NCBI GenBank assembly: GCA_018712135.1 | Contig: DVHK01000093.1 | Coordinates: 8,834-72,833, forward strand | Origin: Candidatus Coproplasma avicola | Lineage (GTDB): Bacteria; Bacillota; Clostridia; Christensenellales; Borkfalkiaceae | Direction of reading: 5' to 3' | Length of the DNA: 64,000 bases | Part shown: positions 27,126 through 50,345 of the stretch, piece by piece | How the letters are laid out: each line of letters starts with the position of its first letter | Numbering within the stretch: position 1 is the first letter of the stretch | Notes under the pieces: generated by a model | Database searches by the model: none | What the model was told of the DNA's origin: nothing | Seen by the model: only the letters and a program-made list of their open reading frames with translations | Made by a program: the position numbers and the translations under genes

Positions 27126-27518
27126 TTAAGCTGCAACTACCTGAACCGTATAGCTGTATACTCCGAGTTGCGTATCGTACTGCGTATTGTCGAAAGAGTA
27201 TCCTTCAGGAACATTTTCAAGATGAATCTGATAATACTTATTTTCTTCAATGCCGCTTATTACAGCTGTACCGTTCTCGTCTACAAGAACACCTCTGAGA
27301 CAGGTTCCAAGTATACCCGCTTCATAGTCATCATATATGCAGAGCTGTACACCCACACCTTCAACAGGACTTCCGTCTTCGTAGGTAACGGTAACAGAAA
27401 TTGTTCCATCAAAAGCTTCATTAGTATCGCCATTTCCGCAAGCGGCAAGAGCGAATGCAAAAACCGCAAGGCAGGCTGTGAGGCAAAGTAAAATCGCCGC
27501 TTTAATTTTTTTCGCCAT
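27126..27518 (-). CDS. Small lipoprotein with a carboxypeptidase-regulatory-like / Cna-B-like beta-sandwich domain
   Basis: 130 aa. Lipoprotein signal (AFALAAC|GNG). ISVTVTYEDGSPVEGVGVQL...VDENGTAVISG...LENVPEGY resembles the N-terminal domain of the upstream 971-aa protein. AAGGAG SD. Confidence 0.65.
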   Translation of the reverse strand: MAKKIKAAILLCLTACLAVFAFALAACGNGDTNEAFDGTISVTVTYEDGSPVEGVGVQLCIYDDYEAGILGTCLRGVLVDENGTAVISGIEENKYYQIHLENVPEGYSFDNTQYDTQLGVYSYTVQVVAA

Positions 27519-27559
27519 ATTATTATATCTCCTTAAAAATTTTGATTCTTTTTAATATT

Positions 27560-27589
27560 CTTTTGCGGCGGATTGCTCCGCCGCAAAAG
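27560..27589 (-). terminator. Intergenic hairpin, possible partial terminator or attenuator
   Basis: 13-bp stem CTTTTGCGGCGGA/TCCGCCGCAAAAG with a 4-nt loop, between the stop at 27613 and the start at 27518. No strong U-tract on the minus strand. Confidence 0.4.
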
Positions 27590-27612
27590 TTTAAATTAGA
27601 TTGTTATTGCCA

Positions 27613-30528
27613 TTAATCGAAAGTTTCGATGTAGTAGCAAAGCTGCATCCAGGCGTTATCGGTAAGACGGTCTTCAAGTTCCATGAGAATTTGAAGAATT
27701 TCAACAATGCGGTCATTAGCAACTACAAATCCATACGAATTCGGGTTTGCAAGAAGTTCGGTCATTTCAGCGGTGAAATCTTGTTTCTGTTCATCGGTGA
27801 GAAGATCGTACCTGTTTACGAATTCGCCGCCGTTCTGCTGAATGAACCCTTCCCTCGTGCCGCCTTCGGCAATATACGCGGCAAGCGCCTCATTCCAGCG
27901 GGCTTCAAGATAATCGTAATACTTCTTATAATAACCGTTTTCTGTGAAGTCAAAACCGTAGCCTTCGATAACGGTATCAACGCCGTCAATAGTAACTTCA
28001 AGTTTCTGGTTTTGCAACCAATTCGTAAGGGGCATTGTGCTGAATGTTGTGCCGTTTGCGACATCGAGATACAGAAGACCATAATCGGTGCCGTCGTCGC
28101 CTACAGCATAGTAATTGCCGTCGCTACGAAGCTCAGCTTTTACATACGTATTCAAGAAGATCTCACCGGTTGTTTCGTCATACGAGTATGCATCCGAAGC
28201 AGCGGGTCTGATAATAAAATCTTCGTCGTAGAAGGCTATATTTAAATCAAAGCTTCCTGTAATATTGTTATCGGTAAGAGCACATGCAATATAATACGTT
28301 TCGCCTGCCGTCAACTGATATACGAGAGAGAAGTTTCCGCCCGTTCCGTTTGAATCAGCTTCCGCAATGTATCGGGGATTGCTTGAATCGCCATAGTTTT
28401 CGTCAAACAACCATGCAACTGTACCTACACCGCCTTCACTTACATTGTCGGCGGCAATATTGGATGAAGTAAAGACATAAGCTGACGAAGTTGTAGGCGT
28501 AAATGAGAATACTATGCCGCGCGGCGCCTTGGGGAAAGTTTCGATATTTTCATAAGTTCCCATTCCCACTTCGATCGCCGTATCGATAAGCAGACCTGCA
28601 ATAGGATCGGTTATTTCTTCAGCCGCATTGCCGTACTGACGATAATAACGGCAGATCTCTAACCATTCCTGTTCATTGTCATTCGCATTGGAATTTCCGA
28701 GTGCGGCTACAATTTCAACAAGCAAATCTTTAAGTTCCTGCGTTACCGGCGTAAGAGCAACTCCTCCTGAAGAAAGCGAATTCGCCATAGTCGTTACACG
28801 CGAATAACGCGCATACCATGCATAATCCTCTATGGTGTCGAAATTTTCATATACAGGCTCGTCATCTACGGTACCGAGGTACTCACCGACAAGGACATAC
28901 TGAGGAGAATTTTCATCGATATATCCGCCGGCATAGGAATTTCTTGCCGTAATTGCCTGTGTATACAGTCCCGAACCCCAAAGAGTATCATTTATCATTT
29001 CGGCAAGGAGATAAGGGCCGTCTGCCGTACCAACATGGTAATAACCATCTTCTTCATTATATACGGGAGTGATATAATCTTCATAATATGCATTGTCAGG
29101 ATCGGTATCGTTAAGGTTAGTCGCCGCCTGACGAAGCATATTGAGACCTATGTTATTCTCGTTAAGTTCATTGACATCGGTGACGCGCAGATTTGAAATA
29201 TATGCCGTATCGTCGCCTACGTCACTGCCCGTATCCTTTTGATAGGTAAACGAAAGCGTGTGTTCGGTTCCGTCACCTACAAAAGCATAGCATGTCTCCC
29301 AATCGGTTTCCTGAATACCGGAGAACGAACCCATTATCATATTGTCGACAATGGCATATAAAATATCGCTTGTCTCTGTGCTCGTGTTATAATCAAATGC
29401 CAGAACTTCACCTTCGGCAAGGTTAAACCTTACGGATACAAGCGACCAGCTTCCGGCATAGCCGGAGTTGGAACTATAAATGCTGTTGCCGTCTTCGCTG
29501 ACGAGCCAAGGCCAGTTATATTCGCTTGTGTAGTCCCATTCAAAAGTTATGTCTTTGCCTTCAAGGGAATCGGAAGAAATTGCTGCTGCAATATCTTCAA
29601 TATCCGGGTTTTCTACCGTGGGAGGAGTAAGCTCCCAATCATTGCCTATTTGAGAATTATCATAATCATCTCCGGTGTATCTTTCGAACCAGTTTCTGAA
29701 TGTGTTTGCATCCGTTATAGACCCTGTTTCGATCATGCAGATCACACCATAACGGTCAATTATGAAATTAGTAGGATAAGCCTGTACGTTAAAAGGAATC
29801 GAATATGAGGCCGTATTGCGATCAGATGCGACATCCCATGTCATTTCATACTGTTCTTTAAAGTTAACAACACCTTCTTCTGTATCGCCGGGCAAGTAAT
29901 AATCGTCGATTGAAATAATTTCTACCACATCATCGAAATCGCTGTAAGCCTGACCCATGGGGCCAACTTCATTTATGCAAGGCTGACATGTAGTATAGAA
30001 GAAGTTTATCATTACCATCTCTTTACCTTCGTTAAATGCATCGGCAAGAGTTTTTTCTTCACGAACAATATTTCCTTCTTCATCACGGCTGAGCGCTTCG
30101 TAGGTAAAGTTATAAATAACGTCACCCTCTTCATAAACTGTTCCTGCCGGGGCATCCTCCATAATTATGGAACTTGAAAGAGTAATTACGATAGGCGTTC
30201 CCGTGAGATCGGTTACATATTCGCTCTGCGTAGGTCTGAAACCTGCGGGGAGAGAATCAGAATCAAGCTCCACATTATATTCCGCAGGGTTAACGTCCTC
30301 AAAAACGACCTGACCGTTATCGCCTGTTACGAGAGACCTGACAGTCGTTCCATTCTGAACAAGGCTGACTGCTGCCCTGCTTACGGGATTTTCTGCCGTA
30401 TCCTGGACAGTTACAGTGTAGTCTATGGGGCCTGTCGGCGTATCTGCTCCGTTATCGCCACAGGCCGCGGCAAAAACGAGAGAAACTGCCAGAAGCACAC
30501 CCATAAACACGCTTAGAAGCTTCTTCAT
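27613..30528 (-). CDS. 971-aa lipoprotein: carboxypeptidase-regulatory-like domain + TlpA-like thioredoxin domain (CQPC) + large C-terminal region with a PPC-like beta domain
   Basis: Signal/lipobox LVFAAAC|GDNG. TVTVQDTAENPV...GDNGQVVFEDVNPAEY is a prealbumin-like fold pattern. MVMINFFYTTCQPCINEVGPM has its CQPC at 29977-29988, and AYPTNFIIDRYG supplies the cis-Pro loop region of thioredoxin-like proteins. GGAGGA SD. Confidence 0.7.
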   Translation of the reverse strand: MKKLLSVFMGVLLAVSLVFAAACGDNGADTPTGPIDYTVTVQDTAENPVSRAAVSLVQNGTTVRSLVTGDNGQVVFEDVNPAEYNVELDSDSLPAGFRPTQSEYVTDLTGTPIVITLSSSIIMEDAPAGTVYEEGDVIYNFTYEALSRDEEGNIVREEKTLADAFNEGKEMVMINFFYTTCQPCINEVGPMGQAYSDFDDVVEIISIDDYYLPGDTEEGVVNFKEQYEMTWDVASDRNTASYSIPFNVQAYPTNFIIDRYGVICMIETGSITDANTFRNWFERYTGDDYDNSQIGNDWELTPPTVENPDIEDIAAAISSDSLEGKDITFEWDYTSEYNWPWLVSEDGNSIYSSNSGYAGSWSLVSVRFNLAEGEVLAFDYNTSTETSDILYAIVDNMIMGSFSGIQETDWETCYAFVGDGTEHTLSFTYQKDTGSDVGDDTAYISNLRVTDVNELNENNIGLNMLRQAATNLNDTDPDNAYYEDYITPVYNEEDGYYHVGTADGPYLLAEMINDTLWGSGLYTQAITARNSYAGGYIDENSPQYVLVGEYLGTVDDEPVYENFDTIEDYAWYARYSRVTTMANSLSSGGVALTPVTQELKDLLVEIVAALGNSNANDNEQEWLEICRYYRQYGNAAEEITDPIAGLLIDTAIEVGMGTYENIETFPKAPRGIVFSFTPTTSSAYVFTSSNIAADNVSEGGVGTVAWLFDENYGDSSNPRYIAEADSNGTGGNFSLVYQLTAGETYYIACALTDNNITGSFDLNIAFYDEDFIIRPAASDAYSYDETTGEIFLNTYVKAELRSDGNYYAVGDDGTDYGLLYLDVANGTTFSTMPLTNWLQNQKLEVTIDGVDTVIEGYGFDFTENGYYKKYYDYLEARWNEALAAYIAEGGTREGFIQQNGGEFVNRYDLLTDEQKQDFTAEMTELLANPNSYGFVVANDRIVEILQILMELEDRLTDNAWMQLCYYIETFD

Positions 30529-30731: not shown

Positions 30732-30989
30732 TCAGCCGCGCATGCCAAAATACATTAATACAAGAACGCATACAAAAACGACGATAAAACATAAAAAATA
30801 CGGCATAAAGTGCATGAATACACCGCGATAAATGGCGCGCCTCTCTTTTTTACTGAGATTAAGCGCGTTGATTTCGTCGCGCCGCTTGCGATCCTGTTTA
30901 GTTTCGTAAGGGCCTACGCCGTCCATGTCGGCAATAACTCTGCCATCGTCGACGAAAACAGATTTTTCTTTCTTTTGCTTATCTTTCAC
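30732..30989 (-). CDS. Small hypothetical membrane protein (85 aa) at the tail of the Opp-like operon
   Basis: Basic N-terminal half and a single C-terminal TM helix (FMPYFLCFIVVFVCVLVLMYF). 9 nt after the ABC ATPase stop. Confidence 0.5.
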   Translation of the reverse strand: MKDKQKKEKSVFVDDGRVIADMDGVGPYETKQDRKRRDEINALNLSKKERRAIYRGVFMHFMPYFLCFIVVFVCVLVLMYFGMRG

Positions 30990-30998
30990 ATTTTCACC

Positions 30999-32096
30999 TT
31001 AATCTTGGGGATAGAGATGACATGCAACCATATGCCCGTTGCCGTAGTCCTTGAATTTAGGTGCAACTTCTTTGCAGATGTCCATGCAATGATTGCAACG
31101 GGTATGGAATTTGCAACCCTTGGGCGCATTGATGGGACTGGGAATGTCGCCGCTGAGAATTATGCGGTTGCTGTGCCTGTCCGGGTCGGGAATGGGCACA
31201 GCCGAGAACAACGCCTCCGTGTAGGGATGCATGGGATTATCGAAAATATCCACGGTCGACGCATACTCAACAAGACTGCCGAGGTACATAACTCCAACCT
31301 TATTGGAGATGTGTTCGACAACCGAAAGGTCGTGCGAAATGAATATATAGGTGAGCCCCATCTTCTCCTGCATGTCTTTGAGAAGATTGATAATCTGCGC
31401 CTGAATTGACACGTCGAGCGCAGATACCGGTTCGTCGCAGACGACGAAACGAGGCTGCAATGCAAGCGCTGTTGCAATGCATATACGCTGACGCTGACCG
31501 CCCGAAAACTCGTGAGGATAACGCTCGTAATAGTGGTAAGGCAAACCACAGCTTTTCATCACTTCGAGAACATACTCTTTAAGCTGTGATTTTGGCACGA
31601 GCTTATGCTGTGCCACAGCTTCGCCTATTATATCGCCCACGGGCATACGGGGCGACAGACTTGAATAGGGATCCTGGAATATAATCTGCATCTGGGGGCG
31701 AAGTGCATTCATTTCAGCTGTTTTAAGCTTGTTTATATCTTTTCCGTCGAAATAAATTTCACCACCCGTCGCAGTTTGTAAACGAAGAATTGTTCTTCCG
31801 AGAGTTGTCTTGCCGCAACCGGATTCGCCGACTATACCGAGAGTCGTTCCTTTTTCTATTTTAAACGATAGATCGTCGACCGCTTTTAAATATGAAATGG
31901 TTCTTCCGAAAAAATCCTTTTTTGCGGGAAAGTATTTTTTTAGGTTGCGGACTTCGAGGAGAGCATTGGGATCGAGAGGTTCAGATATCTGAGTTGACAC
32001 CTCTTCTTCTTTGATGTTTTCATCGGACATTTGTGAGGCAATGACGTCTTCCGAAGCCGTGCCGCCGATGTTTTCTTCCATGAGATTATCACTCAT
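30999..32096 (-). CDS. Oligopeptide/dipeptide ABC transporter ATP-binding protein (OppF/DppF-like)
   Basis: Walker A GESGCGKTT, signature FSGGQRQR, Walker B VVCDEPVSALD, and the C-terminal oligopeptide-type extension (HPYTEALFSAVP). The ATG at 32096 sits 8 nt after AAAGGAGG. Acidic N-terminal extension of about 45 aa. Confidence 0.9.
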   Translation of the reverse strand: MSDNLMEENIGGTASEDVIASQMSDENIKEEEVSTQISEPLDPNALLEVRNLKKYFPAKKDFFGRTISYLKAVDDLSFKIEKGTTLGIVGESGCGKTTLGRTILRLQTATGGEIYFDGKDINKLKTAEMNALRPQMQIIFQDPYSSLSPRMPVGDIIGEAVAQHKLVPKSQLKEYVLEVMKSCGLPYHYYERYPHEFSGGQRQRICIATALALQPRFVVCDEPVSALDVSIQAQIINLLKDMQEKMGLTYIFISHDLSVVEHISNKVGVMYLGSLVEYASTVDIFDNPMHPYTEALFSAVPIPDPDRHSNRIILSGDIPSPINAPKGCKFHTRCNHCMDICKEVAPKFKDYGNGHMVACHLYPQD

Positions 32097-33309
32097 CAGC
32101 ATTACCTCCTTTGTTCTCCTGCCCCTCGTAAAGATAGCACGACACGCGGTGCGTAGGCGAAACCTGAATGAAATGAGGATATTCGCCGTTGCACTTTTCT
32201 ATGCATCGGTCACACCTCTCTTTGAAGTAACAATAGTCGGGCATATCTATGGGGTTAGGCACCTGACCGGGAATGTTGTAAAGCCTTTCAACTTTACGCT
32301 TTACAACCGGCTTGCTCTTTTGCAGACCTATCGTGTAGGGATGCAGAGGATTGTGGAAAATTTCTTCGGTCGTGCCCGCCTCGATGACTCTGCCCGCATA
32401 CATGACGACTACATAATCGGCCATTTCGGCGATGACACCGAGATCGTGTGTAATGAGCATGATCGAACCGTCGATCTTATCCTTTATTTCGCGCAGAAGA
32501 TCGAGAATTTGCGCTTGAATGGTAACGTCGAGAGCCGTCGTTGGCTCGTCGGCAATTATAAGGCGGGGATTACATGAAAGTGCGATAGCAATCATTACGC
32601 GCTGACGCATACCGCCCGAAAGCTCGTGCGGGTAGCAACGATATACACGCTCGGGCGCGGCAATGCCTACGAGTTTAAGCATCTCAATGCTGCGCGCCTT
32701 TGCCTCTTCCTTTGTGCATCCCGTGTGAAGCAAAATCATCTCGTCAATCTGATAGCCGATGCGGAAAACCGGGTTGAGGCTTGTCATGGGCTCCTGGAAA
32801 ATCATGGCAATCTGCTTGCCGCGAATTTTCTGCATTTCGCTCATGGGCATTTTTGTTATGTCGTAAGCCTTATCGCCGAGATTGAAGCGGATAGAACCGC
32901 CGACAATCTGACCTTGGGGCGCCTGAACGAGCTGCATGAGCGAAAGGCTTGTTACAGACTTTCCGCAGCCCGACTCGCCGACGACGCCGACAGTAGCGCC
33001 CTTGGGAATAGAGAAGGTTACGCCGTCAACCGCCTTGGAAACGCCTGCGTCGGTAAAGAAATATGTATGAAGGTCGTCAAACTCAACAATGTTATTTTCG
33101 TCCTGCATCTGGCAGGTATAAACGCTTTCGTCGACGTTCTTGACCCTCTTCTTCTTTTCATACTCGCGCATGGCGCGCGCATTGCTCTTTGCAATCTCAC
33201 GCGATTCTTTTGCGGTGAGGTAGTGCGCATTGCCCTTACGCGAAGGCTTTTTTACATTGCTCCCGTCGGAGCTTTCGGATTGAGTTGTATTGCTTTTTTT
33301 GAATAACAT
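32089..33309 (-). CDS. Oligopeptide/dipeptide ABC transporter ATP-binding protein (OppD/DppD-like)
   Basis: Walker A GESGCGKSV, signature LSGGMRQR, Walker B IIADEPTTALD, and a C-terminal HPYTIGL motif with a Cys-rich tail. Basic N-terminal extension of about 75 aa. Confidence 0.9.
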   Translation of the reverse strand: MLFKKSNTTQSESSDGSNVKKPSRKGNAHYLTAKESREIAKSNARAMREYEKKKRVKNVDESVYTCQMQDENNIVEFDDLHTYFFTDAGVSKAVDGVTFSIPKGATVGVVGESGCGKSVTSLSLMQLVQAPQGQIVGGSIRFNLGDKAYDITKMPMSEMQKIRGKQIAMIFQEPMTSLNPVFRIGYQIDEMILLHTGCTKEEAKARSIEMLKLVGIAAPERVYRCYPHELSGGMRQRVMIAIALSCNPRLIIADEPTTALDVTIQAQILDLLREIKDKIDGSIMLITHDLGVIAEMADYVVVMYAGRVIEAGTTEEIFHNPLHPYTIGLQKSKPVVKRKVERLYNIPGQVPNPIDMPDYCYFKERCDRCIEKCNGEYPHFIQVSPTHRVSCYLYEGQENKGGNADE

Positions 33310-33317
33310 TTTTACTC

Positions 33318-34430: not shown

Positions 34431-34440
34431 CAGCCTTCTC

Positions 34441-35448: not shown

Positions 35449-35469
35449 TGTTGCTCCGTTTGTACATTA

Positions 35470-38139: not shown

Positions 38140-38197
38140 AATATGTCCTCCTGTTTGTTTTGTATAAATAGGATAAACTTTTAAAAGTTAAACTTTT

Positions 38198-39541: not shown

Positions 39542-39700
39542 GGCTTAAACCTCCCGTTATTCTGCGGCGGGTCGCCGCGCTGATTTATTGCACTGCATCA
39601 ATAAAATTAGTTGTATTTATTATAAGGTATAAAAGGCTTATAGTCAAGCAATAGCCCCGCCGTCTGCAATTTTTCACTTACAGACGGCAGCTTGTTTGCC

Positions 39701-42454: not shown

Positions 42455-45400
42455 GGTTCTCATCCTCCTTTTCACGGATCTCGTCTTCATTGTGCAACGA
42501 ATTGTTAACTGTATTTTTCTTGCGCAGTCTGAGAACGACAATTACAGCTGCAATTATTATCAGAGCACCAACGCCGCCGCAGATACCGCCTATAAGTCCG
42601 CCGTTTGCACACGACTGACCGTCGGAAGGCGTTTCAGGTTCGGGCTGATCAGTATTACCGCTGAGCTCGTTGATTCTTTCAACTGCCGCATTGAGCTTAT
42701 CGACATAATCGGCAATAAACTCCCTCTGTCCGTTGCTCATCATTCTGTAATCGGTGTACATTTGATTGACCGTTGTCGCATCATCGAGCGTAAGAGCATC
42801 GACATCAAGAGCGATCAGCCAATCGAGCAGTGCCTGCGTGCCGCTTTCGATTCTTTCTTCTGAATATTCTATCGAATAGAAGAAATATTCATAGAGCACC
42901 GAATCAAAGCCCGTAGCGTTCTGAGGAATTATCATGTTGTTGAGCAAATAGCCAACCGCCTCGCTGAAATTGTAATACAGCGCAATGAAAGAAGCTGCAT
43001 CTTCGTCGCTGTAATTTGTTTCGAGCGTGGGAGCCGTAAGACCGTTGAAAATAAACAGAGGATAAAGCTCGGGGTCGATAGTGCCGGTTATACTGCCGTC
43101 TATTATAAGGCTTCTGCCCATATAATAGAATGCATACGCGCCGATGGAGCGCACGGAAGCAGGCAGTTCGACCGCATGAATATCATCGCAGTAAGCCATT
43201 GCCCAATCGCCTATACGGCTTGTGCCGTCGAGGACGACGAAAGGCGTCGTGTTATCGCCGGTACCGTTGAGCACAATGCCGTTGGGAACAGCAACAAGCT
43301 CATAACTGCCGTTTGCGAGAATTTTATACAGTCCGCCGTTTTCATAATCGGCAAAGAATACAGGGTTGTTGCTGTCGACATCGATTTCGACGAGGTTAGC
43401 GCAACCGGCAAATGCAGGAGTGCCGATAATTTCAAGAGATGCGGGAAGCGATATACTGGTTATAAGCGAATTATAGAACGCGCCGCCACCGAGACCGACG
43501 AGTTTATCGCCGATTTCTACCGAACGTATGCTGCCCGTCTGGCTGTCGCCGTCTTCATCCTGCGTGGGAACATAGAATGCCGAAGCATAAATCTGTTCAA
43601 CGTTAGGAAGATTGAGCGAACGAAGATTGATACAATTATAGAACGCAGAGTTGCCTATTTCTACGGCATCTGTAAAATCACCGTCGGATACAGCCGTGCC
43701 ATAGAAGCTGCGGGCATCAAAATATTCAATGCCTGAGAGCTCAATGTCGCGCACCGCACTGCCTTCAAACGCGCTGACGCCGACATAGGACATGTCCTCG
43801 TCTACCGTTACTGTTGTAAGGGCGGTTGTGCGATAGAACGAATAATCGCCTATTCTCTCGATGCCGGAAAGGTCAATCTGAGAAAGAACGGTATTACCGG
43901 CGAAAGCATAGTCGCCTATACTCTCAATCGAGGAGGCAAGACTAACTTCGGAGAGGTAGTTGTTGCTGCCTATCGTTGTGCCGTCTGTTATAGCAAATGC
44001 GTAGTTACCTACAACCTTTGCTCCGTCGCCGAAAGTAACGGATGTGAGACCGTCATTATTGGCAAAAGCATAGTCGCCCATCTCTTCAAGCGATGCCGAC
44101 ACATAAACGCTTCGAAGCAGTTCGCATCCTTTAAACGCGCTCTCGCCAAGCGAAATAAGGCTGTCGGGAAGTCTGACCTGTGAAAGGCTGATGTTGTTTT
44201 CAAATGCGCTGACACCTATTGAAGTGAGACGCGCATTCGATGCAAACGTAAGCGACGAAAGATTTTCATTGCCATAGAAAGCATAGTCGCCTATACTCTC
44301 GACATTTCTGCCGACCTCAAGCGATTGAAGAGCCGTACCATAGAAAGCATAATCGCCTATCGAAGTTACGCTGTCGGGAATCTGTATCCGTGTAAGCGAA
44401 GAGCAACCGCGGAACATTCCTTCGGGAATAGAACTTATATCGCCGAGGAAAATTACAGATTCAAGATTTTCGCAATAAGCAAAAATATCCTCACCGAAAG
44501 TAGTTACACTTGCAGGAATGACTACGCTTACAATACCCGTACCCGCAAACGCAGCCGAACCGATCTCTGTCACGCCGTCCGCAATGACGAGCGTCATGCC
44601 GTCGAGCGAAGAATTGTTTGCATAGGACTGATCGCCTATGACAGTCATTCCCTCGCCGATAGTAACCGTATTTCCCTGGGTACTTACCGGATATGCCGGG
44701 GGAACAAGTACGGCGTTGCCATTCTTGTCGGTTATCATGGAGTAACTGCCGTTAGTAACGACATTATAATATTCGCTTGCATCGGCGAGAGAAATCGAAA
44801 CAAGGCTGTTGCAGCCGCGGAACATATCCGCACCGAGGTTTGTCAGCCTTACGTCGCCGCTCAGCATAACCTCCGACAGAGCGCTGCAATTCTGGAATAC
44901 ATAATTGCCTAACGTCGTCACGCCAGAGGGGAGTTCGATTTGTTCAAGCGAAGTGCAGTTTGCAAAAGCGTAATCGCCGATGGATGAGAACGAGCGGTTA
45001 AACGTTACCGTCGTAAGCGAAGGACAATTTTCAAACGCACGCGAGCCTATTGTATTGAGCGAAGAATAATTGCCGTCCACATACTCAAATGTCACGCTTT
45101 CAAGTTCGGGCATACCGGCGAATACAGCGTTGCCGACATATGAACCATAATAGGTAACGTTGCGGATTCCCGTACCATAGAACATATACGCGCCGAGAAC
45201 CGTATTGACATCGAGCATAACGCCGGTGATGTCGGAGCAGCCATAGAACACGCTCATTCCGCTGAAACGCAAATCGCGCAAATCAATTGAACCTTCAAGC
45301 GAAACACATCCGCTGAACGCGAAATCATACAGGCCTGTCACACCCTCAAAGTCAATCGTATGAAGCCTTACGCAGTCTCTGAATGCGTCGGATCCGATGA

Positions 45401-48400
45401 CAAGGCTCTGCGATGTCATTTTTGCAGAAGCATTGGCGTAGAACGCATCCCAGTTATATGTGTTCAGATCCGCATCGTAAACAATTCCGCTGCCGCTGTT
45501 TTCGCTGGCATCATACCAGTACACCTCTTCAAGATTCTCACAGCCCGCAAACGCATTGTAAGCAATTGAAATGAGCGTGGAAGGAAGATAAATGCGGCGG
45601 AGCGATGAATTCTGGAAGCACGAAAGTCCTATCGTCGTAACGCCTTCGGGAACCACAACCGTATCTATATTCGTGTTTTCAAAGAAAGGTCCTTCACGCG
45701 TGGCAAGGACATATCCGAGATTTGTAATGCCGAGGTTTGCAGGTATGACAAGCATATTCCTCTGCTCCTGCGTCTGTTCGTCGACATAGGTTTCGGTATA
45801 TCCTGGGCCGTTATATTCATAGAAATAGGTACTTGAAAGAGTAAACTGCTCGCCGACAGATATCGTAAATGTACCTGTGCTGATGCCCGACATAAGGTAT
45901 ATATCGGCATAACCGGGCTCCTTACAAATAACTGTCGCCTGTGAATTATCGGAAGATATTATTTCAACGACATCCGAATTGCTTGAAGTCCATTGCAGAT
46001 TTGATACGCTGCTTACGTACCAGGGATTAAACTTGGGATAGAGGACAAGTTCGGTGCCGCTGTCGACTGAAACGCCACCCGAAGTTACGCCGCGCGATGT
46101 GCCGAGGGTAAGATTATCATATGAACCTACCGACAGTCCTTCAATAGTAGGCGTTCTTCCCGTACCCTCTACCACTACCTCAAATTCAAATACCCCGTAA
46201 GGATCGCCCGAATCGAGAGGATAAGGGAACCTGGCAGAATCGGGAGCATACGCCGTTATCGTTGCCGTACCGGCTGAGACGGCATAAAGTCTGCCGTTCC
46301 ATACGCGGACTATACTGTCGTCGCTGCTCTCCCAAATGACTTCTTCATACATCGGATCATTTGTGACTTTATTGAAATTGTCAGGCGAAATTTCACCGGT
46401 TCGCCTGTTATATGTGAACGTTACCTCTGTACCGCAATCGGGGCAAACAAAATGATTTGAAACATAATCTGTGCCGTTATAGGTTGCGATGATGTCGGTA
46501 AACAATGTGCCGGCGGGATATGTCGGCGTGGTGTCGTCCGCAGTTTTCTGCAACACTCTTCCGCTTGAAGCATCATAGTAATAGTCTCCGGCAGAATAAG
46601 AATAGCCGTAATGCTCGTCGTATTCAAAACCGCAGGTAGCTCCGTGCGAAAGCGTTGTCGCGCATGAATAGATTGAATAATTGTAAAGGCTTATCTCAAA
46701 TTCGGCGCCGGTAACCCTTTCGCCCGAAGCGAGAATTACCGAACCGAGATTTGCATCATCCGTAAAATCAAGTTCCGTGCCCGCGTTCATAACAACGGTG
46801 CCGCCAGCGAGAGACTGAGTTACCGAATTGCCGGTATTATCAAGATAGGTATACTCGATATCCAGACCGCTGACTTCGGGGAACTGTACAGGAACATAGT
46901 ATGCAGCCGAATTGAGAGCATAGTCGTCGACGCGCACACCTATAAATTTGCCGTCCTGTCCCTCTACGCCGAACAGATTATCGAGCCAGTCGGTTATTTC
47001 AACCGTCACCCTGTTGACCGCCCCGCGGGAACTGTCTACGGGAATTGAATACTCTGTCAACCAGTCGATTTCTCCCGACATGTCATCGGTTGCCCAATCG
47101 ACATCGTTTTCTGCTTCTGCAAGAGTAAAGAGCTGAACCGATTGAACATAATGATTGTCGTATAAATACAGATCGAGGTATGCATGACGCAAAGTGGGAT
47201 CGGAAACATCGTATTCAAAACGGACTACATAATCTGTCCTTTCTACAATGGGAGCCTCGTAGTCTACATAGAAAGTAAACTCCTGAGTCTGCTCCTCCGA
47301 CTGCCTTCCATTGTACTCCATGCGGGTGGTAAAGGTTGCAGTGTATTGGGTATTGTTCTGTAAATTAAGCTCGTAAGGCGAAATTCCTATTTCTGCATAC
47401 GAAGGCGTGGTTGAATAAGATTTACCAACCATATGCAGAGTATCGGAATAAACTTCTTCTCCCGTAACGCTGTTTGTGACCACAACGTTCATCTCATCAA
47501 CCGAACGCAGGAGACCGAAGTAAACGGCATAAAACTCGTATACGCCGTAATCGCTGTTGCCGACGGCAATTTTATCTACCATCGACTCGATGCCGCTGTC
47601 CGCACCGCCTTCGGTATCGTAAACATACTGACCGAGGGGGATATAAGTTTCGGTTCCCCTGTAATATCTGCCTATAACAACAGATTCATATACAGCGGCA
47701 ACCGCCTTGTCCTCGTCCTCAATCGCCGTATTATAGCGGTCGGAGCTTACTTCGTAAGTGGTCTTATCGAAAATAGGTGCATCCAGCCAGTTGCCGTAAT
47801 AAGCGAGATAAGGTATGGAAAGATCGACGCCGTTATTTGTATCTGCATCCGTAAGGGTGATAAAGCCCTCTACATACATGCCGTTTTCAAAATTGGAATC
47901 GAGATAATCTTTCTGCGCCGAAGTAAGCGCAATAGAAACCTTTATGGTCACATCCTCGTTGGCGCCGAGGGTTACCACGCCGCTGTCGCTGCGGACGCCG
48001 TTAATATAATAAGTCTTTTTGGCGTCGTCAAGCATATACGCCTGCTCGGCAACGGTTATGCCGTCGATAGATACGCTTTCGGTCATAACCCTTGCGCCGA
48101 GGGTGTAAGTTTTTGTGTTGGACGACATGTTTTTTACATGGAATTCCATCTCGTAGAAGCCAGTCTTGTCGGGGTCGTCGCCGAGTTCAAGTTTAGGCTT
48201 GGAAGTATTTTCCACATATAAATATGCATCTGTGGCAATTGCCTTACTTATGTCGCCAAGTCCTGCACCCTGCCTTCTTACGAAATAAGGAAGTCCGCGC
48301 TCATCGTTTATTATTGTAGCGGTGCTCATAAGAAGCTGGTCTACCCTGTCCGAAAGTTCGGTACCGGTAAGACCGTATGTCTGGCTGACATGCTGGCGAA

Positions 48401-50345
48401 GCAGTGCAACAGCGCCTGCTATATTGGGCGAAGCCATAGATGTACCGCTGTAAATACTATAACCGCCGACTACCGATGAAGTAATCTCGCCGCCGTGAGC
48501 CGTAATCTCGGGCTTAATTTTAAGATCGGACGTGGGCCCCCACGACGAGAACTCAGACATGAAAGGGCCTGCTTTGAAGTCCTCGTTCAAAATGATCGTA
48601 CCCGTACCCATATTTACGAGCGTCTGACCTATGTCTGCCGTCACCGTACAAGTCGGAATTTCCTTACCTGTGCCGAGGGATGCGTTTATGCGGCCCGACA
48701 TATTGTTGTAAATGATACATGCTACGGCGCCGTATCTGAAAGCTATCCTCTGCTTTTCCTCAAAGTCCGTTTCACCGCGCGATACAACGGCAATGGTGTT
48801 GCCTTTTGCGAGTTCGGCCCTCACCGCAGTCGTGTAGTTATAGTCGTAGCCATAACCGGGAACGACTACGAAATTAAATTGCGCTTCGTGCCTGCCGTCG
48901 AGCAATTCTGCGACAAAATCGCCCTGCTCGCCCGAGGAATTTGAAGATTCGTTAAAGTATATTGCCGTACCATCTTCAAGCTGAAGGTACGAAGAAAGCT
49001 GTCCGGAAATTGAAGCAACCGAGAGTGCGCCTGCATAAGTAGAAGGCGAGCCTACCGTGCCGCTATCGGGATTAGAGGTAAGGTTGGTAGAACCATATGC
49101 GCCGTTCTGTGCAGAACTGCCGGAGTTGGACGCAGCGACAACGAGATTTATGCCTGCCTCGTATACTTTGTCGTAAACTTCGTTAATTGCGTTGCCGTCC
49201 TCTTCCCTCGAAAAGCCTGCCGAAACGCCGAGCGACATGTTAATAACGTCTACGCCGAGCGTAATGCAGTCAGAAAGTGCGGCGAGAATATCATCTGTTT
49301 CGGCGCCGCCCTCCGTTCCATCTTCCTGGTCAGGGAAAACCTTGCAGATGACGAGCTGTGCATCGGGTGCAACACCGATGAAATAAGGATCCTCCATATT
49401 TTCAAAAGCTTCACCGTCGTCGGCCGTTACGCTGTCATCCTGACCGGCGATAATGCCCGCAACATGGAGACCGTGCGACGATGACTTAGGGAATACATCG
49501 GGATCGTCATCGGCATAGTCATAAGCAAAAGGAACTTTTGCGTTGTAATATACATCGCTGACGGAAATCGTATCACCCTGAGTGGTCGCTGCAAGATCAT
49601 TGAATTTTTCGGTTACATCTGCCCTCGTAATCTTTTCAACGTCGGGCATAATCTGGAAAGCAGAGTGACTTCTGTCGAAACCTGTATCCAGAATAGCAAC
49701 AGCCATTCCTTCACCCGAATACTCGATATCGGATGAGTCGTAAATACCCGTGCTGTAAACGCTTACTTCATTTAAAGTAGCTTCGGCCTCGGGGGCTGCA
49801 TAGCTTTCGGAATAAATGACGTTCTTTACACCATCAATCTTTTCAATGGCGGCGACGTCATCGTCGTCAACGACGAGAGAAACGCCGTTGATTATCGATG
49901 TGTAGGAATGGCGGACTTCGTAGTCAATTGAAGCCGAACTGAGAGCTTTTAAAAAGCTATTCTGTTCCGCAGATATTGTTTTAGCGTACTGTCTGCCTTC
50001 GGTTGCATTGACGTAATCGGTAAGTTCGGCATAGCGATTACCGAGCGTTTGATCAGCAAGATAAACATCAAGCATGGAATCCGATTGCAGCTGGACTATA
50101 ATACGCCTCGTGCCGTCGCTGTTGACCTTAGCCTGTGCCGACGACAAAAGGTCGCTGTCCATAAACTGAGTGCTGTCTAGCTGACTGCCGAGAGCTTCGG
50201 TTGCGTCGATAACCTCAGCTTTATTTCCCGCATTTGCAACTTTGCTCAGTTCGAGCGGCTTGCTCAGGAGAATTGAAAGCCCGAGGAAAACCGCAGTCAA
50301 CAATGCGAAGATTGTCATCAAAAGGTTTCTGACTCTTGATTTCAC
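42447..50345 (-). CDS. Giant (2632 aa) cell-envelope subtilisin-like (S8) serine protease with PA insert, Ig-like domains, a very long BspA-type LRR region and a C-terminal membrane anchor
   Basis: GTG start 9 nt after ACGGAGG, then a signal/anchor helix. Catalytic Asp in AVAILDTGFD (codon 49686-49688), His in SSSHGLHVAGIIAG (49473-49475), Ser in YSGTSMASPNIAG (48438-48440). PA-like insert (IAVVSRGETDFEEKQ...). Big_2-like segments (WESSDDSIVRV...GTATITAYAP; LQWTSSNSDVVEII...). Dozens of LRR_5-type units (…IGDYAFAGN…). C-terminal GGLIGGICGGVGALIIIAAVIVVLRLRKKN helix. No LPXTG seen. Confidence 0.85.
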   Translation of the reverse strand: MKSRVRNLLMTIFALLTAVFLGLSILLSKPLELSKVANAGNKAEVIDATEALGSQLDSTQFMDSDLLSSAQAKVNSDGTRRIIVQLQSDSMLDVYLADQTLGNRYAELTDYVNATEGRQYAKTISAEQNSFLKALSSASIDYEVRHSYTSIINGVSLVVDDDDVAAIEKIDGVKNVIYSESYAAPEAEATLNEVSVYSTGIYDSSDIEYSGEGMAVAILDTGFDRSHSAFQIMPDVEKITRADVTEKFNDLAATTQGDTISVSDVYYNAKVPFAYDYADDDPDVFPKSSSHGLHVAGIIAGQDDSVTADDGEAFENMEDPYFIGVAPDAQLVICKVFPDQEDGTEGGAETDDILAALSDCITLGVDVINMSLGVSAGFSREEDGNAINEVYDKVYEAGINLVVAASNSGSSAQNGAYGSTNLTSNPDSGTVGSPSTYAGALSVASISGQLSSYLQLEDGTAIYFNESSNSSGEQGDFVAELLDGRHEAQFNFVVVPGYGYDYNYTTAVRAELAKGNTIAVVSRGETDFEEKQRIAFRYGAVACIIYNNMSGRINASLGTGKEIPTCTVTADIGQTLVNMGTGTIILNEDFKAGPFMSEFSSWGPTSDLKIKPEITAHGGEITSSVVGGYSIYSGTSMASPNIAGAVALLRQHVSQTYGLTGTELSDRVDQLLMSTATIINDERGLPYFVRRQGAGLGDISKAIATDAYLYVENTSKPKLELGDDPDKTGFYEMEFHVKNMSSNTKTYTLGARVMTESVSIDGITVAEQAYMLDDAKKTYYINGVRSDSGVVTLGANEDVTIKVSIALTSAQKDYLDSNFENGMYVEGFITLTDADTNNGVDLSIPYLAYYGNWLDAPIFDKTTYEVSSDRYNTAIEDEDKAVAAVYESVVIGRYYRGTETYIPLGQYVYDTEGGADSGIESMVDKIAVGNSDYGVYEFYAVYFGLLRSVDEMNVVVTNSVTGEEVYSDTLHMVGKSYSTTPSYAEIGISPYELNLQNNTQYTATFTTRMEYNGRQSEEQTQEFTFYVDYEAPIVERTDYVVRFEYDVSDPTLRHAYLDLYLYDNHYVQSVQLFTLAEAENDVDWATDDMSGEIDWLTEYSIPVDSSRGAVNRVTVEITDWLDNLFGVEGQDGKFIGVRVDDYALNSAAYYVPVQFPEVSGLDIEYTYLDNTGNSVTQSLAGGTVVMNAGTELDFTDDANLGSVILASGERVTGAEFEISLYNYSIYSCATTLSHGATCGFEYDEHYGYSYSAGDYYYDASSGRVLQKTADDTTPTYPAGTLFTDIIATYNGTDYVSNHFVCPDCGTEVTFTYNRRTGEISPDNFNKVTNDPMYEEVIWESSDDSIVRVWNGRLYAVSAGTATITAYAPDSARFPYPLDSGDPYGVFEFEVVVEGTGRTPTIEGLSVGSYDNLTLGTSRGVTSGGVSVDSGTELVLYPKFNPWYVSSVSNLQWTSSNSDVVEIISSDNSQATVICKEPGYADIYLMSGISTGTFTISVGEQFTLSSTYFYEYNGPGYTETYVDEQTQEQRNMLVIPANLGITNLGYVLATREGPFFENTNIDTVVVPEGVTTIGLSCFQNSSLRRIYLPSTLISIAYNAFAGCENLEEVYWYDASENSGSGIVYDADLNTYNWDAFYANASAKMTSQSLVIGSDAFRDCVRLHTIDFEGVTGLYDFAFSGCVSLEGSIDLRDLRFSGMSVFYGCSDITGVMLDVNTVLGAYMFYGTGIRNVTYYGSYVGNAVFAGMPELESVTFEYVDGNYSSLNTIGSRAFENCPSLTTVTFNRSFSSIGDYAFANCTSLEQIELPSGVTTLGNYVFQNCSALSEVMLSGDVRLTNLGADMFRGCNSLVSISLADASEYYNVVTNGSYSMITDKNGNAVLVPPAYPVSTQGNTVTIGEGMTVIGDQSYANNSSLDGMTLVIADGVTEIGSAAFAGTGIVSVVIPASVTTFGEDIFAYCENLESVIFLGDISSIPEGMFRGCSSLTRIQIPDSVTSIGDYAFYGTALQSLEVGRNVESIGDYAFYGNENLSSLTFASNARLTSIGVSAFENNISLSQVRLPDSLISLGESAFKGCELLRSVYVSASLEEMGDYAFANNDGLTSVTFGDGAKVVGNYAFAITDGTTIGSNNYLSEVSLASSIESIGDYAFAGNTVLSQIDLSGIERIGDYSFYRTTALTTVTVDEDMSYVGVSAFEGSAVRDIELSGIEYFDARSFYGTAVSDGDFTDAVEIGNSAFYNCINLRSLNLPNVEQIYASAFYVPTQDEDGDSQTGSIRSVEIGDKLVGLGGGAFYNSLITSISLPASLEIIGTPAFAGCANLVEIDVDSNNPVFFADYENGGLYKILANGSYELVAVPNGIVLNGTGDNTTPFVVLDGTSRIGDWAMAYCDDIHAVELPASVRSIGAYAFYYMGRSLIIDGSITGTIDPELYPLFIFNGLTAPTLETNYSDEDAASFIALYYNFSEAVGYLLNNMIIPQNATGFDSVLYEYFFYSIEYSEERIESGTQALLDWLIALDVDALTLDDATTVNQMYTDYRMMSNGQREFIADYVDKLNAAVERINELSGNTDQPEPETPSDGQSCANGGLIGGICGGVGALIIIAAVIVVLRLRKKNTVNNSLHNEDEIREKEDENRE

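What the first reader, a model, noticed from the sequence alone, without database searches (positions are those of the whole stretch)
27126..50345. About 23 kb of same-strand genes linking a giant surface protease, LRR/Flg_new lipoproteins, an Opp-type importer and a thioredoxin lipoprotein
Twelve consecutive minus-strand genes run from the 2632-aa S8 protease to the small lipoprotein. Spacers are short, two gene junctions overlap (42447-42454 and 32089-32096), and only weak hairpins lie inside.

Functionally the order reads as follows: surface protease, then binding or adhesion modules, then an oligopeptide-binding protein, two permeases, two ATPases and finally a redox lipoprotein.

This is analogous in logic to the lactococcal PrtP/Opp proteolytic system. 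Here, however, the components are physically linked and the protease is fused to a BspA-like LRR targeting region. That suggests a dedicated capture, reduction, cleavage and import pathway for a specific extracellular, possibly host-derived, protein substrate.
Basis: inference. Interest (0 to 1): 0.65.

Follow-up and report, generated by a model that had tools for sequence, protein, structure and literature searches.

The report
Conserved surface-protease plus peptide-importer gene cluster
A small-genome chicken-gut bacterium (Candidatus Coproplasma, Christensenellales) keeps its only subtilisin-type surface protease next to its only Opp-type importer, a pairing found across many related gut species that probably serves protein feeding, while the neighbouring thioredoxin lipoprotein belongs to a separate redox module.

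Summary
The gene run is real.

Comparative genomics splits the run into two parts.

(1) A conserved unit: a giant CEP-like S8 protease, a Flg_new/GLUG lipoprotein ("g3"), an 889-aa family-5 binding protein, OppBCDF and an 85-aa membrane protein.
- In an even sample of 151 Christensenellales genomes, protease and binding protein co-occur: 21 both, 1 and 2 alone, 127 neither.
- They lie on one contig and strand in nearly every genome that has both, in two gene orders and with unrelated flanks.
- 53 of 58 species loci with enough flank show the pairing.
- Two species fuse protease and g3 into one frame.
- This assembly has only one S8 locus and only one family-5 binding-protein locus, both here.

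(2) The 971-aa thioredoxin lipoprotein and the 130-aa lipoprotein. Strong matches are limited to this genus and two close relatives. They travel with the convergent polyferredoxin-TlpA genes and are often inverted or on another contig.

Chicken-gut metatranscriptome contigs cover the whole run, with depth steps at 39.6 kb and 30.7 kb. One transcript is therefore not shown.

The function (cleave outside, import peptides, as in the lactic-acid-bacterial PrtP/Opp system) is inferred. I found no published description.

The parts
42447..50345 (-). Giant surface protease (2632 aa). Order of parts: signal peptide, I9 propeptide, S8 catalytic domain with inserted PA domain, fn3_5, about 500 aa unassigned, Big_2, about 1000 aa of BspA-type LRR_5, then a C-terminal TM helix with a basic/acidic tail.
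   Evidence: Pfam. Closest solved relatives are C5a peptidase, SpyCEP and cell-envelope proteinase. D220/H291/N407/S636 are invariant in 55 orthologs. It is the only PF00082 locus in the assembly. It is covered by metatranscriptome contigs.
39701..42454 (-). g2: lipoprotein (lipobox LAAC) with 3 Flg_new repeats and LRR_5. Its start overlaps the protease stop by 8 nt.
   Evidence: Pfam and lipobox. A separate gene of this kind occurs only in close relatives and in family f20 (G044).
39619..39690 (-). Intergenic signals between g2 and g3: a 13-bp stem-loop (39655-39690, no U-tract), then a sigma-70-like TTGACT-17-TATAAT site (39647-39619).
   Evidence: In run X5 the contigs break here and the depth rises from 4.2 to 15.8.
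38198..39541 (-). g3: 447-aa lipoprotein (lipobox LSAC) built of beta-grasp Flg_new/B-repeat domains plus a GLUG-like beta-helix C-terminal part. It is the conserved partner placed directly upstream of the binding protein.
   Evidence: Pfam. A lipoprotein-type ORF lies directly upstream of the SBP in 75 of 77 loci. The lipobox Cys is invariant. The AF2 model has pLDDT 88.7 with no whole-protein PDB match. g3 is fused in frame to the protease in L052 and L069.
35470..38139 (-). Oversized family-5 (cluster C) substrate-binding lipoprotein of 889 aa, with a mostly helical insert of about 220 aa (roughly residues 170-390).
   Evidence: Pfam. The AF2 model has pLDDT 90.8. The best Foldseek match is B. 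subtilis AppA with a bound nonapeptide, TM 0.81 on the target. It is the only PF00496 locus in the assembly.
30999..35448 (-). OppB (34441-35448), OppC (33318-34469), OppD (32089-33309) and OppF (30999-32096): two permeases and two ATPases with oligo_HPY C-terminal regions.
   Evidence: Pfam. The nearest NCBIfam models are Opp4B/Opp4C/OppD/DppF, all below their cut-offs. There are no paralogs of OppB or OppC in the assembly.
30732..30989 (-). s85: 85-aa protein with a charged N-terminus and one TM helix. It is the conserved last gene of the importer unit.
   Evidence: Homologs lie directly after OppF in at least 21 of 80 loci at 25-62% identity. Unannotated 79-89-aa genes sit at the same place in L031-L033. 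It has no Pfam or NCBIfam match.
27613..30528 (-). 971-aa lipoprotein: prealbumin-like beta-sandwich, ResA/TlpA-like thioredoxin fold (CQPC) and about 690 aa unassigned. It is a neighbouring redox module, not part of the conserved protease-importer unit.
   Evidence: Pfam, ResA matches. Strong hits occur only in the genus and lie next to the polyferredoxin gene. The only other clear matches are in L043 and L045.
27126..27518 (-). 130-aa lipoprotein that is paralogous to the N-terminal beta-sandwich of the 971-aa protein. A canonical terminator follows at about 27075-27120.
   Evidence: BLASTP gives 27% identity over 119 aa, E 7e-6. The terminator has -32.6 kcal/mol, z -10.6. The X1 RNA contig ends in adapter sequence at 27106.
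24395..26922 (+). Convergent two-gene membrane redox module: a 275-aa Cys-rich membrane protein and a 572-aa polyferredoxin fused to a TlpA-like thioredoxin. It is the usual neighbour of the 971-aa lipoprotein.
   Evidence: Pfam Fer4_5/Fer4 plus AhpC-TSA/Redoxin. Adjacency in genus genomes. RNA depth is 6-28 times lower than in the cluster.
50346..50563 (-). Leader and promoter-like region of the protease gene (TTGTTA-16-AATAAT at 50563-50536), inside a 435-nt AT-rich spacer.
   Evidence: RNA contigs stop matching at 50483-50513 in X1 and X5, and depth drops beyond 50538.

Best explanation
The 23-kb run holds two things.

(A) Positions 30732-50345 are a conserved 'outside digestion plus import' unit.
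- A membrane-tethered subtilisin of the cell-envelope-proteinase type carries a long LRR arm. It is inferred to cleave extracellular protein at the cell surface.
- The oversized family-5 lipoprotein is inferred to capture the resulting oligopeptides and hand them to OppBCDF for ATP-driven uptake.
- The Flg_new/GLUG lipoprotein g3 and the 85-aa membrane protein are conserved accessory parts of unknown role. g3 probably works physically with the protease, because the two are fused in two species.
- g2 is a lineage-specific extra LRR/Flg_new surface protein, translationally coupled to the protease.

(B) Positions 27126-30528 (the thioredoxin lipoprotein and its small paralog) form a surface thiol-redox module together with the convergent polyferredoxin-TlpA genes at 24395-26922. 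In this genus that module merely lies next to (A).

Shown: gene content, domain identities, catalytic residues, conservation of linkage, co-occurrence, the fusion, and expression in vivo.

Inferred: peptide as the ligand, a nutritional purpose, any physical complex, and the transcript structure.
For: Domains.

Protease:
- The catalytic part is closest to C5a peptidase, SpyCEP and cell-envelope proteinases (7edd E 7e-66).
- The triad and the oxyanion Asn are invariant in 55 orthologs.

Binding protein:
- The AF2 model has pLDDT 90.8.
- The best structural match is the AppA-nonapeptide complex 1xoc (E 1e-20, TMt 0.81).
- The best sequence match in the PDB is also AppA.
- The nearest NCBIfam models are Opp4A/B/C and OppD/F.

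Linkage:
- Within the genus, protease and SBP share contig and strand in about 18 of the 20 genomes that have both. Protease identity falls as low as 40%.
- In the order-wide sample of 151 genomes: 21 have both, 1 has the SBP only (a distant SBP subtype), 2 have the protease only, 127 have neither. Fisher p is 2e-22, or 9e-14 when collapsed to genera.
- In that sample the two genes are co-located in 18 of the 19 other genomes with both. These span 7 families (f1, f20, f25, f34, f36, f40, f42).
- Two gene orders exist: the protease is upstream in 45 loci and downstream of Opp in 8. Together that is 53 of the 58 species loci with adequate flanks.
- Flanking genes are unrelated: his operon, IMPDH, SpoIIE/ArgRS. 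The window's own flanking genes are not conserved with the cluster.
- Genomes lacking one gene usually lack both, for example G004 and G070 at 95-99% completeness.
- One genome outside the order (G321) has the same arrangement.

Accessory parts and uniqueness:
- g3 lies directly upstream of the SBP in 75 of 77 loci, and is fused to the protease in L052 and L069.
- The assembly has a single PF00082 locus and a single PF00496 locus, both in this cluster.

Expression:
- Four chicken or other gut metatranscriptome runs give contigs at 95-99% identity over the whole cluster.
- Their depth is 6-28 times that of the convergent neighbour gene.

Thioredoxin module as separate.
Against: - No ligand or substrate has been measured. 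Cluster-C binding proteins also bind nickel, glutathione, opines, EDTA complexes, sialic acid and murein peptides, and such proteins are among the next-best structural matches.
- No NCBIfam equivalog cut-off is reached.
- The closest solved protease relatives (ScpA, SpyCEP) are specific host-factor-cleaving enzymes, not nutritional ones.
- About 9% of species loci have the importer core without a protease within 10 kb. The protease is then elsewhere in the genome.
- The RNA evidence consists of unstranded assembled contigs. It gives no transcript ends and cannot show co-regulation beyond organism abundance.
- The assembly is only 77% complete, so 'only one S8 and only one Opp' could change.
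- The polyferredoxin module does sit next to the cluster in several non-genus MAGs (L067, L071, L077, L079, L084, L108, G169). A looser functional tie to surface thiol chemistry is therefore not excluded.
Confidence: 0.68

Rival explanations
1. All 11 genes form one dedicated capture, reduction, cleavage and import pathway. The 971-aa thioredoxin lipoprotein reduces disulfide-rich (host) substrates so that the protease can cut them.
For: - Same strand and proximity in this window.
- RNA contigs in X1 and X2 run across the 203-nt gap at 30.6 kb.
- The lipoprotein lies within 10-20 kb of the cluster in about ten genomes of the genus.
- A polyferredoxin-TlpA module follows Opp on the same strand in several distant MAGs.
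Against: - Strong homologs of the 971-aa protein occur only in the genus and in two close relatives.
- In many genus genomes the gene is inverted relative to Opp (G003, G005, G010, G011, G012, G015, G016, G024). In others it is on a different contig, while still adjacent to the polyferredoxin gene (G007, G009, G013, G020).
- 14 of 27 cluster-bearing genomes have no polyferredoxin-TlpA gene at all.
- Families f20 and f34 have housekeeping or other genes after Opp.
Confidence: 0.12
2. The unit is not nutritional.
- The protease would be an adhesin or host-factor-cleaving or surface-maturation enzyme, like C5a peptidase or SpyCEP.
- Alternatively it would process a secreted pro-peptide.
- The Opp system would import signalling peptides or cell-wall peptides, as Opp does for RNPP pheromones or MppA does for murein tripeptide.
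For: - The closest solved relatives are ScpA and SpyCEP.
- The long BspA-type LRR arm and the Flg_new domains are typical of adhesins and internalins.
- MppA and other non-nutritional binding proteins are among the structural matches.
Against: - No regulator, pheromone precursor or two-component genes lie in or beside the cluster in any locus inspected.
- This is the only Opp-type importer and the only S8 protease of a 1.5-Mb genome.
- The pairing is kept across at least 7 families with different flanks. That is easier to explain by metabolic coupling.
Confidence: 0.15
3. The adjacency is inherited gene order without functional meaning, and the co-directional packing is coincidental.
For: - Genomes within a genus share much synteny.
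- The serine-dehydratase-like gene near the redox module also recurs near the cluster in some loci.
Against: - Linkage persists at 33-40% SBP identity and 40-47% protease identity across at least 7 families, and in one genome outside the order.
- It survives a permutation of gene order and complete turnover of the flanks.
- It shows near-perfect phyletic co-occurrence and co-loss, and includes a gene fusion.
Confidence: 0.03

Closest known systems
Proteolytic system of lactic acid bacteria (cell-envelope proteinase PrtP/PrtS/PrtH, Opp importer, intracellular peptidases)
   Same: - The logic is the same: a surface-bound S8 subtilase with a PA insert and an Fn3-like domain degrades external protein, and an Opp-type ABC importer with a lipoprotein binding protein takes up the oligopeptides.
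- The catalytic region matches solved cell-envelope proteinases.
   Different: - Here the protease and importer genes are adjacent and co-directional, and this is conserved across many species. In lactic acid bacteria they are, as far as I know, separate loci (my own knowledge, not checked here).
- No PrtM-type maturase gene lies in the cluster.
- The anchor is a C-terminal TM helix, not LPXTG.
- The C-terminal half is BspA-type LRR_5 instead of the B/H/W domains.
- The binding protein is about 350 aa larger.
- There are two extra conserved components, g3 and s85.
Streptococcal C5a peptidase (ScpA/ScpB) and SpyCEP
   Same: Best sequence matches among solved structures over residues of about 206-900: S8 with PA insert followed by Fn3 domains.
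   Different: - Those are sortase-anchored virulence proteases with single host targets and no linked importer.
- The protein here adds about 1700 aa (Big_2, LRR_5, TM anchor) and comes from a gut commensal lineage.
Bacillus subtilis AppA / Lactococcus OppA oligopeptide-binding proteins (cluster C, family 5)
   Same: Same fold. AppA with a bound nonapeptide is the top structural and sequence match.
   Different: - Identity is only 11-13%.
- The protein carries a helical insert of about 220 aa.
- The ligand is untested.
Staphylococcus aureus aureolysin/Opp3-dependent growth on host protein (PMC6495380)
   Same: An experimentally shown case in which protease-released peptides feed a Firmicute through one particular Opp system (abstract read).
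   Different: - The protease there is a secreted metalloprotease.
- That paper's abstract does not describe the protease and opp3 genes as one cluster. Whether they are linked in the genome was not checked here.
ResA/TlpA-type extracytoplasmic thiol-disulfide oxidoreductases (for the 971-aa lipoprotein only)
   Same: Thioredoxin fold with a CxxC motif, tethered to the membrane outside the cell.
   Different: - It is embedded in a 971-aa multidomain lipoprotein.
- It sits beside a polyferredoxin-thioredoxin fusion instead of a CcdA/DsbD-type electron donor.
- No cytochrome-maturation genes are nearby.

Membership tests
Cell-envelope proteinase type S8 subtilases (lactocepin, ScpA, SpyCEP) | S8 catalytic domain with the Asp-His-Ser triad and the oxyanion Asn | tested here: met
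   Peptidase_S8 E 3e-42. D220, H291, N407 and S636 are present and invariant in 55 orthologs.
Cell-envelope proteinase type S8 subtilases (lactocepin, ScpA, SpyCEP) | PA domain inserted in the catalytic domain, with an Fn3-like domain after it | tested here: met
   PA at 512-576 lies inside S8 (211-695), and fn3_5 lies at 730-847. The alignment to ScpA/SpyCEP spans residues 206-900.
Cell-envelope proteinase type S8 subtilases (lactocepin, ScpA, SpyCEP) | Sortase (LPXTG) cell-wall anchor | tested here: not met
   The C-terminus is a hydrophobic helix followed by RLRKKN and an acidic tail, with no LPXTG. Most orthologs end the same way. The NCBIfam LPXTG-peptidase model scores 260 bits against a cut-off of 1400.
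Lactococcal PrtP system | Adjacent PrtM-type (PrsA-like) maturase lipoprotein | tested here: not met
   No rotamase or PrsA domain occurs in any of the 11 products.
Opp/Dpp-type ABC importer (peptide/nickel/opine family) | Family-5 binding protein, two BPD_transp_1 permeases (one with OppC_N) and two ATPases with an oligo_HPY C-terminus, all in one cluster | tested here: met
   The fold of the binding protein is confirmed.
Opp/Dpp-type ABC importer (peptide/nickel/opine family) | Assignable to a curated oligopeptide equivalog | tested here: not met
   Scores against cut-offs: Opp4A 72 bits vs 650; Opp4B 231 vs 450; Opp4C 314 vs 350; OppD 346 vs 575; DppF-type 403 vs 408.
Opp/Dpp-type ABC importer (peptide/nickel/opine family) | The ligand is an oligopeptide | not testable with these tools
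   There is only resemblance to AppA. Binding assays are needed.
Single operon (one transcription unit, 50345-27126) | No internal promoter or terminator, and one continuous transcript | tested here: inconclusive
   - Against: strong stem-loops and an 11/12 promoter-like site lie inside the run, and depth steps occur at 39.7 kb and 30.7 kb in X5.
- For: single RNA contigs span both gaps in X1 and X2.
- The contigs are unstranded and may merge overlapping transcripts.
ResA/TlpA-like extracytoplasmic thioredoxin (971-aa lipoprotein) | Thioredoxin fold with a CxxC motif outside the membrane | tested here: met
   AhpC-TSA at 156-263 with CQPC, plus a lipobox. ResA matches.
Conserved protease-Opp unit (membership of the thioredoxin lipoprotein) | Co-occurs and stays linked with the protease and Opp across lineages | tested here: not met
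   It is restricted to the genus, is often inverted or on another contig, and follows the polyferredoxin gene instead.

The most novel reading that the evidence does not exclude
The products of the conserved unit assemble into one physical surface machine, a Gram-positive 'protein utilisome'.
- The LRR arm of the membrane-tethered protease, the g3 lipoprotein and the helical insert of the oversized binding protein would dock on each other.
- s85 would tie them to the OppBCDF translocator.
- Peptides would then pass from the active site to the importer without diffusing away.

The conserved g3 position, the protease-g3 fusion in two species and the family-wide SBP insert are compatible with this. 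None of them proves it.
Probability: 0.22. Interest if true: 0.8.

Novelty: new variant of a known kind. Interest (0 to 1): 0.55.

Why it matters
Christensenellales (Borkfalkiaceae, Christensenellaceae-like and allied families) are common but mostly uncultured gut bacteria with small genomes, and their physiology is largely unknown.

A conserved, expressed unit that joins the only surface protease to the only oligopeptide-type importer suggests that many of them live on extracellular protein. The source could be dietary, host-derived or microbial.

This would matter in three ways:
- It gives a concrete handle for cultivation, for example protein or peptide media.
- It helps in interpreting gut proteolysis and faecal serine-protease activity.
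- It offers a model for how Gram-positive cells couple polymer breakdown to uptake.

The unit also defines three uncharacterised conserved components that can now be tested: the g3 lipoprotein, the SBP insert and the 85-aa membrane protein.

For this window specifically, the result separates the thioredoxin lipoprotein from that unit and assigns it to the neighbouring iron-sulfur/thioredoxin redox module.

Tried and rejected
- Literature: three full-text searches on CEP/Opp clusters in Clostridia or Christensenellales found no description of this linkage. A fourth search on the genus name found only taxonomic papers.
- CodY-box scan (AATTTTCWGAAAATT, up to 3 mismatches): 9 hits against 4.8 +/- 2.3 expected. 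One hit lies at 50465-50479, upstream of the protease. This is not above chance, so no conclusion.
- Rfam scan of 26800-51300 at E <= 0.1: only the tRNA-Gly and a sub-threshold 'Thr_leader' hit that is simply the terminator hairpin. No riboswitch or T-box lies in the leaders.
- Twelfth gene: only 23-61-aa ORFs lie in or overlap the 203-nt gap (37 aa the longest on the coding strand), and none is credible.
- Polyferredoxin-TlpA module as an obligate part of the cluster: rejected. It is absent from 14 of 27 cluster-bearing genomes and is mostly on other contigs outside the genus.
- Foldseek of the g3 model against the PDB: no whole-protein match. Only the InlB B-repeat/ubiquitin-like beta-grasp and weak beta-helix similarities appear, and no catalytic hint.
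- Expression ratios across the four RNA runs scale with organism abundance, so they say nothing about co-regulation.
- The adapter-terminated contig end at 30734 in X5 might mark a 5' end for the thioredoxin-gene transcript. It is a single low-depth contig, so I did not rely on it.

Full report
**1. What is in the sequence**

ORF listing and Pfam confirm a run of minus-strand genes from 50345 to 27126:
- 42447-50345: a 2632-aa protein. It has a signal peptide, an I9 propeptide, Peptidase_S8 (211-695) with an inserted PA domain (512-576), fn3_5, Big_2, eight LRR_5 stretches and a C-terminal TM helix.
- 39701-42454, "g2": a lipoprotein with three Flg_new repeats plus LRR_5.
- 38198-39541, "g3": a 447-aa lipoprotein with one sub-threshold Flg_new match.
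- 35470-38139: an 889-aa SBP_bac_5 lipoprotein.
- OppB, OppC (with OppC_N), OppD and OppF (both with oligo_HPY).
- 30732-30989, "s85": an 85-aa single-TM ORF.
- 27613-30528: a 971-aa lipoprotein with a prealbumin-like domain and an AhpC-TSA/thioredoxin fold (CQPC).
- 27126-27518: a 130-aa lipoprotein.

Further points on the layout:
- Five products carry lipoboxes.
The other spacers are 8-58 nt, except 159 nt (g2/g3), 203 nt (s85/thioredoxin gene) and 94 nt.
- I count eleven genes. Nothing credible fills the gaps.
- The 130-aa protein is a paralog of the N-terminal beta-sandwich of the 971-aa protein.

**2. Signals inside the run**

The statement that only weak hairpins lie inside is not right.
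- A 13-bp stem (-27.4 kcal/mol, z -5.5) follows g2. It is followed by TTGACT-17-TATAAT (11 of 12 matches) ahead of g3.
- Another 13-bp stem (-24.2 kcal/mol, z -6.9) separates the thioredoxin gene from the small lipoprotein.
- Neither stem has a U-tract.
- A canonical bidirectional terminator (-32.6 kcal/mol) closes the run.
- No Rfam element lies in the leaders.
- A CodY-box scan was not above chance.

**3. Organism**

- The assembly is a 1.49-Mb MAG, 77% complete.
- A same-genus genome (G003, contig length 155,618) is the record titled 'Candidatus Coproplasma sp.' (L118).
- That genus is GTDB UBA11940, Borkfalkiaceae, Christensenellales. It was described from chicken faeces with genomes of 1.4-1.7 Mb (PMC8035907).
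- The sequence is present at 95-99% identity in chicken-gut metatranscriptomes.

**4. Do the genes travel together? Within the genus**

- Protease and binding protein lie on the same contig and strand, 8-10 kb apart, in about 18 of the 20 genomes that have both. Protease identity falls as low as 40%.
- In G017 the Opp operon precedes the protease.
- Four genus genomes lack both genes.

**5. Do the genes travel together? Across the order**

In an even sample of 151 genomes of the order:
- 22 have the large binding protein and 23 have the protease.
- 21 have both and 127 have neither. Fisher p is 2e-22, or 9e-14 when collapsed to genera. These p-values ignore phylogeny, but the positives span 14 genera.
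- The one 'SBP-only' genome (G114) carries a distant SBP subtype of about 835 aa. That subtype also occurs, without a protease, in other orders.
- Of the 19 other genomes with both genes, 18 have them co-located on one strand. These span 7 families (f1, f20, f25, f34, f36, f40, f42).
- One genome from another order (G321) has the same arrangement.

**6. Do the genes travel together? Species-representative genomes**

- A pattern scan with an SBP alignment found at least 582 species genomes encoding a relative.
- Among the best 80 loci, 58 have adequate flanks. Of these, 45 have the protease upstream and 8 have it downstream of Opp, always on the same strand. Five have none within 10 kb.
- In eight genomes whose locus showed no protease S8 hit (five of them among the loci scored above as adequately flanked; one, L046, turned out to have the protease just beyond the flank), the giant protease exists elsewhere in the genome, often in 2-3 copies.
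- The flanks differ completely between lineages: his operon, IMPDH/GMP synthase, SpoIIE/ArgRS/HAD.
- The window's own flanking genes do not accompany the cluster.
- The linkage is therefore not residual synteny.

**7. The conserved core**

- Distant loci (37-39% SBP identity) show this order: [about 430-aa g3-like protein] - SBP - OppB - OppC - OppD - OppF - [79-89-aa protein].
- A 360-510-aa ORF with a lipoprotein or TM signal sits directly upstream of the SBP in 75 of 77 loci.
- Its alignment keeps the lipobox Cys, an N-terminal 'VTYxxNGG' Flg_new domain and a C-terminal 'GNGxTISN...TFENV' region. Pfam calls this region GLUG in the G044 ortholog.
- The AF2 model (pLDDT 88.7) shows beta-grasp domains plus a beta-helix-like domain. 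It has no whole-protein match in the PDB.
- In two species (L052, L069) the protease frame runs without a stop through its TM helix, a short basic loop and a second TM helix into the g3 domain. This is a topologically sensible fusion, conserved at 51% identity between the two. It is independent evidence that g3 works with the protease.
- s85 homologs follow OppF in at least 21 loci.
- A separate g2-type LRR/Flg_new gene is seen only in the close relatives and in family f20. Elsewhere the g3 gene follows the protease directly.

**8. The individual parts**

Protease:
- The closest solved relatives of residues 206-900 are C5a peptidase (7edd, 7e-66), SpyCEP and cell-envelope proteinases.
- D220/H291/N407/S636 are invariant in 55 orthologs. 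Most orthologs end in a TM helix plus a basic tail, and a few lack it.

Binding protein:
- The AF2 model has pLDDT 90.8 and pTM 0.87. It is a cluster-C fold with a helical insert of about 220 aa.
- The top Foldseek match is B. subtilis AppA with a nonapeptide (E 1e-20, TM 0.81 on the target). Next come a mix of nickel-, EDTA-, glutathione-, sialic-acid- and peptide-binding relatives.
- Sequence search gives AppA as well.
- The NCBIfam nearest models are Opp4A/B/C and OppD/DppF, all below their cut-offs.
- A peptide is thus the best guess for the ligand, but it is not established.

Uniqueness: the assembly contains one PF00082 locus and one PF00496 locus, both here. It has no OppB or OppC paralog.

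**9. The thioredoxin lipoprotein**

- Strong homologs occur only in the genus. In nearly every case they lie within a few kb of the polyferredoxin-TlpA gene, which in the window is the convergent neighbour at 25204-26922.
- Relative to Opp the gene is inverted in G003, G005, G010, G011, G012, G015, G016 and G024.
- In G007, G009, G013 and G020 the thioredoxin/polyferredoxin pair is on a different contig from the protease-Opp cluster.
- The polyferredoxin gene is absent from 14 of 27 cluster-bearing genomes. Outside the genus it is adjacent to the cluster only in G169 and in a handful of mouse or other MAG loci.
- A looser connection is conceivable but untested. One idea is keeping the many cysteines of the LRR_5 surface proteins reduced. 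There are 16 Cys in the protease LRR region and 13 in g2.

**10. Expression**

- Four metatranscriptome runs (two studies) yield contigs covering the whole cluster.
- Depth drops 6-28-fold at the 3' boundary. In X1 it is 479 at 27106-29217 against 17 at 26500-22. This argues for RNA rather than contaminating DNA.
- In X5 the depths are 32.7 (27139-30734), 13-16 (30948-39725) and 4-10 (39698-50513). The contig breaks fall at the two long spacers.
- In X1 and X2 single contigs cross both spacers.
- On the upstream side, depth falls beyond about 50.5 kb, consistent with the promoter-like site at 50563-50536.
- All genes are therefore expressed in vivo, and there are at least three expression levels. 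Read-through is possible. The transcript structure remains open, because these are unstranded assembled contigs.

**11. Comparison with what is known, and novelty**

- Functionally the unit parallels the lactic-acid-bacterial proteolytic system and the aureolysin/Opp3 route of S. aureus (PMC6495380).
- It differs in several ways: conserved physical linkage, a TM rather than LPXTG anchor, the LRR_5 arm, no PrtM, the enlarged binding protein, and the extra conserved g3 and s85.
- Four full-text searches found no description of it.
- Earlier notes of this scan report the same unit in at least eight other genomes, with the same reading. I treated them as leads and re-derived the linkage here independently.
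- I rate it a new variant of a known kind.

Noticed in passing
L052:1261-9948 and L069:1133-9778: In two chicken-gut MAG species the giant protease and the g3 protein are one stop-free frame (2895 and 2881 aa). The order is protease, TM helix, short basic loop, second TM helix, g3 ectodomain. This is a natural fusion of two cluster components.
   Followed up: partly
window 22958-24274 (-): A 438-aa SDH_alpha (serine dehydratase alpha / cysteine-desulfidase-like) gene lies divergent from the membrane redox pair. It recurs next to the Cys-rich membrane protein and polyferredoxin genes in L071, L077 and L118. It may belong to a cysteine/thiol-related neighbourhood.
   Followed up: partly
window 19878-22793 (-): A second ORF of exactly 971 aa with no Pfam match. 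It is not a paralog of the thioredoxin lipoprotein, since there was no cross-hit in the own-genome search.
   Followed up: no
window 42635: All four metatranscriptome runs carry a 9-nt in-frame insertion (AGGTTCGGG) relative to the window. It lies in the part of the protease gene that encodes the low-complexity linker just before the TM anchor. This is strain-level length variation.
   Followed up: no
window 50483-50810: In run X1 the expressed strain's contig stops matching at 50483 and continues in unlike sequence. Another contig replaces 50810-50850 with 636 other letters. The AT-rich region upstream of the protease gene therefore varies between strains.
   Followed up: no
G024, G112, G127, G174-G176, G181 (relatives): Several relatives carry two or three copies of the giant protease. 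G024, G112 and G127 also have two copies of the large binding protein. Some copies are linked and some are on separate contigs, suggesting paralogous expansion of the unit.
   Followed up: partly
L032 and L104 (relatives): The protease orthologs in these loci end without a hydrophobic C-terminal helix.
   Followed up: no
window 32089-33309 and 30999-32096: OppD and OppF each end in a Cys-rich stretch (CYFKERCDRCIEKC...C and CKFHTRCNHCMDIC...C). They have 10 and 9 Cys in total. From my own knowledge this resembles the Fe-S-binding C-termini reported for some OppD/F proteins. OppC, OppD and OppF also carry charged N-terminal extensions of about 45-75 aa.
   Followed up: no
window 27040-27117 (+): A sub-threshold Rfam 'Thr_leader' hit (33.9 bits against a gathering score of 55) coincides with the bidirectional terminator hairpin. 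It is almost certainly spurious.
   Followed up: yes
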